Source: Octopus vulgaris
Lineage: Eukaryota
NCBI GenBank assembly: GCA_951406725.2
Contig: OX597814.1
Location: 50,220,001-50,284,000 of the forward strand
Direction: 5' to 3'
Length of the DNA stretch: 64,000 nt
Part shown: piece by piece, positions 29,717 through 52,715 of the stretch
How the letters are laid out: every line of letters starts with the position of its first letter
How positions within the stretch are numbered: the first letter of the stretch is position 1
The notes under the pieces: model-generated
Database searches by the model: none
The model's input: only the letters and a program-made list of their open reading frames with translations
Told to the model about the DNA's origin: nothing
Program-made: the position numbers and the translations under genes

Positions 29717-30462
<746 letters not shown>

Positions 30463-48466: not shown

Positions 48467-49200
48467 TTGCTAGAACTTCTCAGTCTGGGCCCTAAATTTA
48501 TCTTGAGCCAACAGCCAAATGAAAAAATCTTAATCGACCTGGAAGCCAACTTTTGTCGAATAGCCTGCCAACTCAAATGGCTATCGATGATAAAGAAGAA
48601 GAACACACTCGGCAAATTTCCCACGTACCAACTAGACCACCCACTCCACTCACTCTCAACCAACCAAGAACTTAACCACAAACTATCCAGATTGAAACAG
48701 TCTATCTCCAACATCTTAAGGAAGGAATCGAAAATAAGTTCAAATTTAACCAAGGCGCAACAAAACATTGACTAAAAAGCAAAAACCTTGTATAATTACC
48801 ATCAGTTAAAGGAAAAGAAATCTGCATGATTTCTTGTGAAATATATAATAGACTGGCACTAGAACATTTAAGCAATGACAGGCTATATTCTGAAGTGATA
48901 GATATAACTGCGACCAGGATTGAGGACCGAATTAACACCGCATGGACGGACATCTGTAGACGGAGACAGATACATAATAAATTCAAGAACAACTTCATCA
49001 TAAAGAACAGAAGATTACTCAGATTTTATCACCTCATTAAAACACACAAGAATAGCAACACGATCCAGATTAGACCCATCGTCTCCAGCGTGGAAGGGCT
49101 TCTATATAAAATATCCTGGTTACTTTCTCACATCCTGAAACCCACACTCTCCACCTTTCCTGGACACGTCAAGAACTCCGACGAAGTGGTTTAGCAACCT
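48467..49200 (+). pseudogene. Penelope-like element RT N-terminal relic
   Basis: ELLSLGPKF; RFYHLIKTHK...IRPIVSSVEGLLYKISWLLSHILKP...HVKNS (PLE RT motifs 1-2); split by a stop/frameshift and truncated. Confidence 0.9.
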
Positions 49201-51332: not shown

Positions 51333-51392
<60 letters not shown>

Positions 51393-51399
<7 letters not shown>

Positions 51400-51740
51400 A
51401 ATATTAGGGAATAAATCCAAATTTACAGGGAAAAATCAGATTTAGGATTAAATCCAATTTTATAGTAAAATATTATATAATATAATTCGAGACAAAACCA
51501 CTATTTTGCAAAACAAACAAGGAAAGACTTAATCAATACATAAAAATTTTTAATATAAAGAAATAAACCGCCACTACAATCGTTTCATGTCTTCAATGAC
51601 ATTCGTCAGGTGGATTTTCGATCTCCTAATCTGTTTTAATTTATGAAGTAGTGGCGGTTTATTTCTTTATATTAAAAATTTTTATGTATTGATTAAGTCT
51701 TTCCTTGTTTGTTTTGCAAAATAGTGGTTTTGTCTCGAAT

Positions 51741-51751
<11 letters not shown>
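51393..51751 (-). mobile_element. (TA)n-flanked non-autonomous PLE/retrozyme-like cassette with perfect 104-bp inverted repeat
   Basis: Arms 51474-51577 and 51648-51751 are exact reverse complements; the 70-nt spacer holds the hammerhead core. Confidence 0.85.
51571..51613 (-). ncRNA. Type I minimal hammerhead ribozyme, canonical core
   Basis: CCAC-CUGACGA-AUGUC auugaa GACAU-GAA-AC gauu GU-A-GUGG; all core positions present, GUA site between 51575 and 51574. Confidence 0.9.
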
Positions 51752-51792
<41 letters not shown>

Positions 51793-52261
51793 TATATCAT
51801 TCAACCACGGTACAGGTTGAATATATTCTTAAGTCTACCATTTCGTCAATCGCAGCAGCTTCCAAGCTTCACCACTAATTCAGTTCTCAACTAAATTGCA
51901 AACTGTTAATTGTTTTAAAGGAGGTCACCTCCTCAGCTATACTTTGGCATAAATAGTTTGAGATTTGGTTCAGTTGAAAAAAAGTTACATCAAAATATCT
52001 ACGACCTCAAGGGGTCAGTAAGGCAGATATTCATCTTCATTTTAAATAATTTCTTTTTTAATTTCAAATTTCTTAAGCTTAAATGATAGAAAAATGCATA
52101 AGAAATTCAAAATCTCTCGTCGCATTCAACAGAAACTAGCAGAAAAAGAGTTATGAGGTAACATGTTACGAAATTTCGTCTCTGCAAGTAAGGAAGTAGG
52201 GGAGTAACGCTTCAGCAATAAGAATATAGAATATATTTCTAAAATGAATACTTACATTCTC

Positions 52262-52715
52262 AGGCGACGAGCTGGCAGAAACGCTAGCGCGCTGGTAGAA
52301 GAGATAGCATGCCAGGCCAAATGCATATCGATATTTCTTCTGTCTTTACGATTTGTAGTTCAAATTTCCAAGAGGTCGACTTTGACGTACATATTATTTC
52401 ATTTTTTTAACTAAACACTTTCAAACTTCCGATACTGGTAGAATATGTCACATAGAACAGGGTTTACTCTTAACGTTTTTGACAAAATTTCGTATTTTAG
52501 AAGCGGTATTTCCTCTGTCTTTATGTTCTGAGTTCAAATTCCGCCGAGGTCGACATTGCTTTTCATCCATTTTGGAGCTATTCAGTTAGACACACAGATT
52601 ATTTAATTAATTTTTTTTAAACTAAACACTTTAAAACTTCCGATACTGGTAGAATGTGTCACGTAGAACAGGGTTTACTCTTAGCGTTTTTGACAAAATT
52701 TTGTATTTTAGAAGT
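52262..52715 (+). repeat. SINE fragment fused to a second segment, tandemly duplicated
   Basis: tatttc.tctgtcttta...gaggtcgac plus actaaacacttt.aaacttccgatactggtagaat...gtattttagaag at about 52332-52503 and 52507-52713. Confidence 0.8.

What the first reader, a model, noticed from the sequence alone, without database searches (positions are those of the whole stretch)
51571..51613. Canonical minimal hammerhead predicted to work as a dimer
All catalytic nucleotides are present with 4-bp stem I, 5-bp stem II and a GUA site. Stem III has only 2 bp, but ACGAUUGU is fully self-complementary when G.U pairs are allowed, so two copies could form an 8-bp intermolecular helix. That is the established behaviour of PLE and retrozyme minimal hammerheads. 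This is the best candidate for an active ribozyme in the window.
Basis: partly seen in the sequence, partly recalled or inferred. Interest (0 to 1): 0.8.

Follow-up and report, generated by a model that had tools for sequence, protein, structure and literature searches.

The report
Hammerhead in spliced Penelope leader copy
The hammerhead ribozyme motif is real but is not a free-standing gene: it sits in a short, intron-less copy of the front end of a Penelope-type jumping element, likely pasted in from a spliced RNA that had not cut itself, and thousands of such copies may help explain why these elements keep their introns.

Summary
The type I hammerhead at 51613-51571 (minus strand) is there as described, with the scissile bond at 51575/51574, and is not a chance match. 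It is one of 298 identical copies in the genome and belongs to the 5' leader (pLTR) of a Hydra-clade Penelope-like retrotransposon that has intact RT + GIY-YIG ORFs elsewhere. The window insertion is a 254-nt leader copy (exon 1 joined to exon 2, intron missing) plus a perfect 104-nt inverted partial copy, inside (TA)n. It holds one hammerhead core only, and the inverted arm is predicted to sequester stem I, so this locus is unlikely to be active. Two leaders can fold as a double hammerhead, but dimer action is not 'established' for PLE motifs: published dimers cleave weakly and one is protein-assisted. The more informative result is family-wide: most short copies are spliced, start near one site and run uncut through the hammerhead, whereas 31 of 31 leaders in ORF-bearing loci keep the intron. 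A minor class ends 7-14 nt past the cut site, a possible but unproven trace of cleavage. No RNA data could be laid.

The parts
51571..51613 (-). Type I hammerhead motif (stem I 4 bp, stem II 5 bp, stem III 2 bp with self-complementary loop); predicted scissile bond 51575/51574
   Evidence: 298 exact copies in G000
51623..51649 (-). Exon 1 of the element's leader; its 5' end (51649) lies at the family's common 5' end, inferred to be the transcription start
   Evidence: in intron-bearing copies this 27-nt piece is followed by a GT donor; 5' ends of copies pile up at -79..-63 from the cut site
51622..51623 (-). Exon 1/exon 2 junction; a 1.1-1.6 kb GT-AG intron is missing here, 9 nt upstream of stem I
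   Evidence: subfamily E shows two alternative GT donors joined to one AG acceptor
51474..51622 (-). Exon 2 of the leader up to the 'short' 3' end (first inferred RT start site)
51396..51473 (-). About 78-nt 'tail' up to the 'long' 3' end (second inferred RT start site); about 70 nt further on, the ORF starts in full-length elements
   Evidence: 34 of 34 pairs have one long and one short end
51648..51751 (+). Inverted, 5'-truncated second copy (short end), 100% identical over 104 nt; it begins 0-3 nt from the scissile bond, junction ambiguous by microhomology
51336..51394 (.). (TA)n target microsatellite, left
51741..51797 (.). (TA)n target microsatellite, right

Best explanation
The motif is the pLTR hammerhead of a Hydra-clade Penelope-like retrotransposon, and the window holds a short, intron-less leader copy of that element paired head-to-head with a truncated inverted copy in a (TA)n tract, likely made by reverse transcription of spliced RNA that had not self-cleaved and predicted to be inactive at this locus. 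Shown by sequence: family membership, intact RT-GIY-YIG ORFs elsewhere, the exon junction, the two fixed 3' ends, the (TA)n target, and that most short copies run through the cut site to a common 5' end. Inferred, by analogy with PMC11167929: the endonuclease cuts both strands of (TA)n, each end primes reverse transcription at one of two internal sites about 100 and 175 nt downstream of the hammerhead, each cDNA runs to the RNA's 5' end or stops early, and host repair joins the two. On spliced RNA this can give only a dead-end leader; long and full-length copies come from unspliced, more-than-unit-length RNA. The hammerhead likely cleaves slowly and conditionally in the parent RNA (as a double hammerhead and/or helped by the element's protein), and cleavage is not needed for insertion.
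For: 298 exact copies of the 43-mer; 1794 and 2101 exact matches to 3'-end anchors of subfamilies A-D and E. The same leader precedes an RT ORF in L031; 12 of 141 protein matches lie in open frames of 820 codons or more at 92% identity or more. The 837-aa ORF has KWK, DKT, YRDD, CxCx5C, a GIY-YIG variant with a single Cys inside, CxxC and CxH, the Hydra-clade diagnostics of PMC8557442 section 11. Of 93 copies used (106 found on contig C1, 13 dropped), 46 end at -79..-63 and 65 pass the cut site; 50 of 57 that cross the junction are spliced. Subfamily E, 60 of 62 rows used: 27 end at -75..-50, spliced; 16 longer, all unspliced; two GT donors are used with one acceptor, which points to spliceosomal splicing of sense RNA. 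31 of 32 matches in 16 ORF-bearing loci are unspliced leaders, the other is not a family leader. 34 of 34 pairs are long+short and 33 of 34 same-subfamily. Window read-through: stem I probability 0.00. No other part of the element is in the window.
Against: No RNA evidence: no run on record as RNA was listed and no reads could be laid, so the start site, splicing and cleavage are read from DNA copies only. A cleaved and re-ligated (circular) RNA would also give copies that cross the cut site, though it would not stop at exon 1. No intact ORF with the window's own subfamily-A leader was seen among 19 fetched regions; L031 is broken. Clade assignment rests on motifs, no tree was built, and Pfam scans of the ORF found no RT or GIY-YIG family. 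Folding penalties assume equilibrium; a transcript starting at 51649 would lack the inverted arm, although the whole 248-nt unit also disfavours stem I (probability 0.02).
Confidence: 0.82

Rival explanations
1. The family hammerhead cleaves a sizeable minority of parent RNAs in vivo, and copies ending 7-14 nt past the cut site are cDNAs that ran off the cleaved 5' end and were trimmed of the GC-rich tip during joining. (Compatible with the best explanation; it concerns the minor class.)
For: 18 of 93 ends fall at +7..+14 against 7 in -49..-1 and 10 in +15..+55 (binomial p 2e-7 and 2e-5; per insertion 15 v 6 and 8 of 59). Repeats in subfamily E, whose sequence differs there: 8 of 60 at +1..+14 (p about 0.002). 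Genome-wide for subfamilies C/D: 580 matches reach +8, 430 reach +1, 376 reach -5. Single copies end at or next to the bond: L249 at +1, L210 both arms and L213, a filler starting at +1 in L150, and the window's own arm.
Against: 0 of 18 ends lie within 6 nt of the bond, whereas 24 of 45 start-site ends lie within about 6 nt of the inferred start (Fisher p 3e-5). The class is commonest in subfamily C (11 of 38), whose hammerhead looks weakest (U.U at the stem II base, no dimer gain), against 4 of 35 in A. 5 of 13 inspected '+8 but not +1' loci were point variants, so the genome-wide drop is inflated. PMC11167929 found no RNA ends at the cut site in the anole element.
Confidence: 0.35
2. The +7..+14 class comes from reverse transcriptase stalling and slipping where a U-rich run meets the GC-rich 3' strand of stem I; the hammerhead rarely or never cleaves and is kept mainly as a structure.
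For: Ends sit just 3' of GUGGCGG with TTTAT stutter fillers; other small end clusters follow local microhomology (E, -44..-46); only 1 of 11 pairs covaries across 9 variants and shuffles match it; copying crosses the site uncut in 65 of 83 and 49 of 57 cases.
Against: Core positions are invariant across five subfamilies while N7, loop II and loop III vary; stem II, a similar hairpin, causes no pile-up on its 3' side (2 ends at -12..-1).
Confidence: 0.45
3. One reading: this locus encodes an active ribozyme that works as a dimer, as in tandem retrozymes.
For: Intact core; spontaneous double-hammerhead co-fold; loop III is self-complementary in subfamilies A, B, D, E.
Against: One core only; not a tandem array (among the first 100 listed exact copies, 19 opposite-strand pairs and 1 same-strand pair); inverted arm sequesters stem I; GAUU ranks only 77 of 256 loops for dimer gain and subfamily C's AUUU has none; sequences upstream of exon 1 are absent; transcription unknown.
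Confidence: 0.08
4. The short unit is a self-propagating non-autonomous family (retrozyme- or SINE-like) copied from other short copies rather than from the full element's RNA.
For: Very high copy number and a fixed 5' end; animal retrozymes are proposed to derive from pLTRs (bioRxiv 10.64898/2026.07.22.740005).
Against: Each short-copy subfamily checked (A, B, C, E) has matching intron-bearing copies; two donors and donor variants track the parents; no head-to-tail arrays of the unit were seen in the sampled loci; short copies are usually trimmed at the start site.
Confidence: 0.1

Closest known systems
Hydra-clade Penelope-like elements (PMC8557442)
   Same: C-terminal GIY-YIG, DKT, R/KWK, CxCx5C linker, no CCHH, CxxC and CxH, hammerhead in pLTR, (TA)n targets, inverted 5'-truncated copy, tail on one end
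   Different: Unit about 6.0-6.8 kb in most full elements against <3 kb described; Asn-rich insert (42% N at residues 495-600); tail about 78 nt against 30-40; thousands of spliced leader-only copies, not mentioned in the passages read
Poseidon_Ac of the green anole (PMC11167929)
   Same: Two internal RT start sites delimiting the tail, both target strands used, uncleaved RNA as main template
   Different: Other clade; there the hammerhead overlaps the ORF start and priming is at a non-homologous AC-rich loop, here it lies about 270 nt upstream of the ATG and both ends are AU-rich like the target
Penelope of Drosophila virilis (PMC2377424, PMC4209133)
   Same: Internal promoter, short first exon, leader intron ending next to helix I, small palindromic helix III
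   Different: Intron 75 nt against 1.1-1.9 kb here; genomic copies are described as keeping the intron, here most short copies have lost it
Non-LTR retrozymes (PMC7229834)
   Same: About 250-nt non-coding unit with a type I hammerhead and short stem III
   Different: Retrozymes are head-to-tail arrays with canonical hammerheads giving circular RNA; this is a dispersed inverted pair with one core

Membership tests
Type I hammerhead | Conserved core CUGANGA, GAAA, NUH and three helices | tested here: met
   core invariant in 9 variants
Type I hammerhead | Site-specific, core-dependent self-cleavage | not testable with these tools
   no assay; genomic end class inconclusive
Type I hammerhead | Covariation of helices | tested here: inconclusive
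   1 of 11 pairs with a two-sided change (A-U to U-A), not above shuffles
Canonical or minimal PLE hammerhead consensus (PMC4209133) | G10.1-C11.1 pair and extra nucleotide between 9 and 10.1 | tested here: not met
   A-U, U.U, A.G or U-A at that pair and no extra base
PLE hammerhead with small palindromic helix III | Palindromic 15.2-16.2 and loop 3 | tested here: met
   8 of 8 positions pair in A, B, D, E; 6 of 8 in C
Penelope-like element | Single RT + GIY-YIG ORF between pLTRs that carry the motif | tested here: met
   homologues carry PF26215; domains called by motif, Pfam scan blank
Penelope-like element | Inverted 5'-truncated copy and tail at one end | tested here: met
Hydra clade | RWK, DKT, CxCx5C, no CCHH, CxxC and CxH | tested here: met
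   against PMC8557442 section 11; KWK here, RWK in homologue P0003
Hydra clade | Insertion into (TA)n | tested here: met
Hydra clade | Phylogenetic placement of the RT | not tested
   no labelled reference set in hand
Non-LTR retrozyme | Two or more head-to-tail units each with a complete hammerhead | tested here: not met
   single core in window; pairs are inverted

The most novel reading that the evidence does not exclude
This family keeps a genomic record of its RNA processing. Splicing of the leader intron is a fate switch: spliced sense RNA is reverse-transcribed often but yields only dead-end leaders, while only unspliced (possibly hammerhead-cut and circularised) RNA yields full elements, which explains intron retention in Penelope elements without an antisense template; and the copies ending just past the hammerhead are fossils of its cleavage in the germ line.
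Probability: 0.3. Interest if true: 0.7.

Novelty: new variant of a known kind. Interest (0 to 1): 0.45.

Why it matters
The hammerhead alone is one more PLE motif. What matters is the pattern around it. Why Penelope elements keep introns is called unexplained in PMC8557442, and PMC3846280 proposed an antisense template. Here intron-less copies are the commonest short insertions, which needs a spliced sense template, yet every ORF-linked leader examined keeps the intron. With at least 12 long open frames in the genome and a mapped pair of priming sites, the family is a ready test system for how splicing and hammerhead cleavage steer PLE copying, and gives genomic support for the in vitro result that uncut RNA is the main template.

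Tried and rejected
Rfam: no hammerhead family matched; the MIR1435 hit is the AT-rich inverted repeat. Pfam and PDB sequence searches of the ORF were blank. Neptune clade, my first guess from the Cys linker, was dropped after reading the Hydra diagnostics. Sequencing runs: no RNA holder listed; no reads could be laid, so expression, splicing and RNA ends are untested. A splice-dependent extension of helix I is predicted for subfamily A, but an equally good extension forms in the unspliced context, so it was dropped. Same-template copying of both pLTRs: within-element differences are 0-2 of 170 nt, but sister elements can be as close; inconclusive. The -91 ends for L141 are an artefact of using that locus as its own reference. 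A link to the RT-like fragment at 48796-49194 was rejected: no match to the family ORF. Earlier scan findings: none returned. Literature searches for spliced genomic pLTR copies showed none in listings or passages read; key subscription papers on PLE introns (2003, 2005, 2006) were not available, and no supplements were opened.

Full report
Observation. The minus strand at 51613-51571 carries a complete type I hammerhead: 4-bp stem I, CUGACGA, 5-bp stem II, GAAA, 2-bp stem III with loop GAUU and a GUA triplet; the bond to be cut is 51575/51574. It is the only descriptor hit in the window, and 200 locally shuffled windows gave 1 hit in all. The 8-mer spanning stem III is self-complementary. Rfam does not match it. 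The stem II base pair is A-U and there is no extra base after A9, so it is not canonical by the criteria in PMC4209133 (sections read: parts 1-2 of 4).

Surroundings. The motif lies in a 254-nt unit (51649-51396, minus strand) preceded by a perfect 104-nt inverted partial copy, the whole set between two (TA)n tracts. The genome, 2.8 Gb, holds 298 exact copies of the 43-mer and 1794 plus 2101 exact matches to two versions of the unit's 3' end. The host looks like a cephalopod, an inference from named homologues in Argonauta and Octopus.

Parent element. In L031 the same sequence precedes a broken RT ORF and recurs downstream. A protein search found 141 matches, 12 of them in open frames of 820 codons or more at 92% identity or more. 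The 837-aa ORF shows KWK, DKT, YRDD, an Asn-rich insert, CxCx5C, a GIY-YIG variant without CCHH, CxxC and CxH. These match the Hydra-clade diagnostics in PMC8557442 (passages and section 11 read). Pfam and PDB scans were blank and no tree was built. The intact ORFs I fetched carry subfamily E or C leaders; none of 19 regions showed an intact ORF with the window's subfamily A leader.

The window copy is spliced. In long copies the first 27 nt of the unit are followed by a GT donor, 1.1-1.6 kb of intron in subfamily A, and an AG acceptor 9 nt before stem I; in the window the two exons are joined at 51623/51622. In subfamily E two GT donors 4 nt apart are both found joined to the same acceptor, which argues for RNA splicing over DNA deletion. 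I sampled the first hits on contig C1 (96 exact of the first 100 listed plus 10 partner arms; 13 rows dropped as anchor-only, an internally deleted tandem, or an old fragment). Of 93, 46 end at -79..-63 relative to the cut site and 50 of 57 that cross the junction are spliced. In an E sample (60 of 62 rows), 27 end at -75..-50 and are spliced, and the 16 longer ones are all unspliced. Five spliced copies among 17 exon-1 matches reach 16-75 nt further upstream. In 16 ORF-bearing loci, 31 of 32 matches are unspliced leaders, 10 directly before the ATG; the last is not a family leader. Some upstream pLTRs reach beyond exon 1, which needs a more-than-unit-length template.

How the insertion likely formed. 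All 34 inverted pairs have one short and one long 3' end, and 33 are from one subfamily. PMC11167929 (parts 1-3 of 4 read) shows for an anole PLE that both target strands are cut and extended, that reverse transcription starts at two internal sites that delimit the tail, that its hammerhead cleaves only with the protein, and that uncut RNA is the main template. The same scheme on a spliced RNA gives exactly these leader-only pairs. That step is inferred.

Is the hammerhead active? Two leaders co-fold into the double hammerhead (-28.4 against 2 x -11.6 kcal/mol) and monomer stem III is unpaired, so a dimer is plausible. But the gain for GAUU ranks 77 of 256 loops, subfamily C has none and is still abundant, and only one pair covaries, although the core is invariant across five subfamilies. 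PMC4209133 reports low activity for PLE dimers; efficient dimers are shown for axolotl retrozymes (PMC7229834, passages). At this locus there is one core, and the inverted arm pairs with the triplet and stem I, a 17.8 kcal/mol penalty. Family-wide, 65 of 83 and 49 of 57 copies that reach the site run through it, so most templates were uncut.

A second class of ends. 18 of 93 ends lie at +7..+14 and 8 of 60 in E at +1..+14, both above neighbouring stretches; genome-wide counts drop from 580 to 430 between +8 and +1 and to 376 at -5, but 5 of 13 inspected losses were point variants, and 6 of 8 in the second step. A few copies end at the bond itself (L249, L210, L213, and the window's inverted arm, whose junction is ambiguous). 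Against cleavage: none of 18 ends is within 6 nt of the bond whereas 24 of 45 start-site ends are that close to the start, and the class is richest in the weakest-looking subfamily. Stalling at stem I explains it about as well.

Comparison and novelty. It is a member of the Penelope-like elements, Hydra clade by motifs, and works like the anole element. It fails the retrozyme test (no tandem units; definition from the bioRxiv preprint, part 1 of 5 read). The leader intron beside helix I echoes D. virilis Penelope (PMC2377424, passages). PMC8557442 calls intron retention unexplained and PMC3846280 (passages) proposed an antisense template. My searches and passages of PMC12910113 and PMC13282606 showed no account of spliced genomic leader copies, but older subscription papers and all supplements were unseen.

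Verdict. Interest comes from the spliced-leader pattern: 0.45. No RNA data were obtained.

Noticed in passing
window 29838-30269 (+): 143-aa frame resembling the restriction-like endonuclease end of a non-LTR retrotransposon (motif recalled; Pfam gave no real hit).
   Followed up: partly
window 48796-49194 (+): Decayed RT-like fragment that looks like the N-terminal part of another Penelope-type element (recalled motif); no match to the Hydra-family ORF or to the PLE ORF of L075.
   Followed up: partly
window 52329-52650: Imperfect direct repeat with a period of about 175 nt, unexplained.
   Followed up: no
L188 2992-3030 (+): Another hammerhead, of a different family, with no loop III (CGUA), about 225 nt upstream of a 954-aa ORF that is 55% identical to the family RT over the matched part; a (TA)n tract lies between them, so the link is uncertain.
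   Followed up: no
L207, L208, L209, L212: A subfamily C variant has GUU at the triplet and a perfect AAUU palindrome.
   Followed up: no
L145 / L172: Three copies of an internally deleted unit that lacks the hammerhead and joins the ORF start back to the leader, two in tandem.
   Followed up: no
L165 residues 495-600: Asn-rich insert (42% N) between RT and endonuclease, like the inserts reported for rotifer Penelope elements in PMC3846280.
   Followed up: partly
C1 sample, 34 pairs: The two arms of a pair tend to have similar lengths (16 both long, 9 both ending past the cut site), hinting at one shared template.
   Followed up: partly
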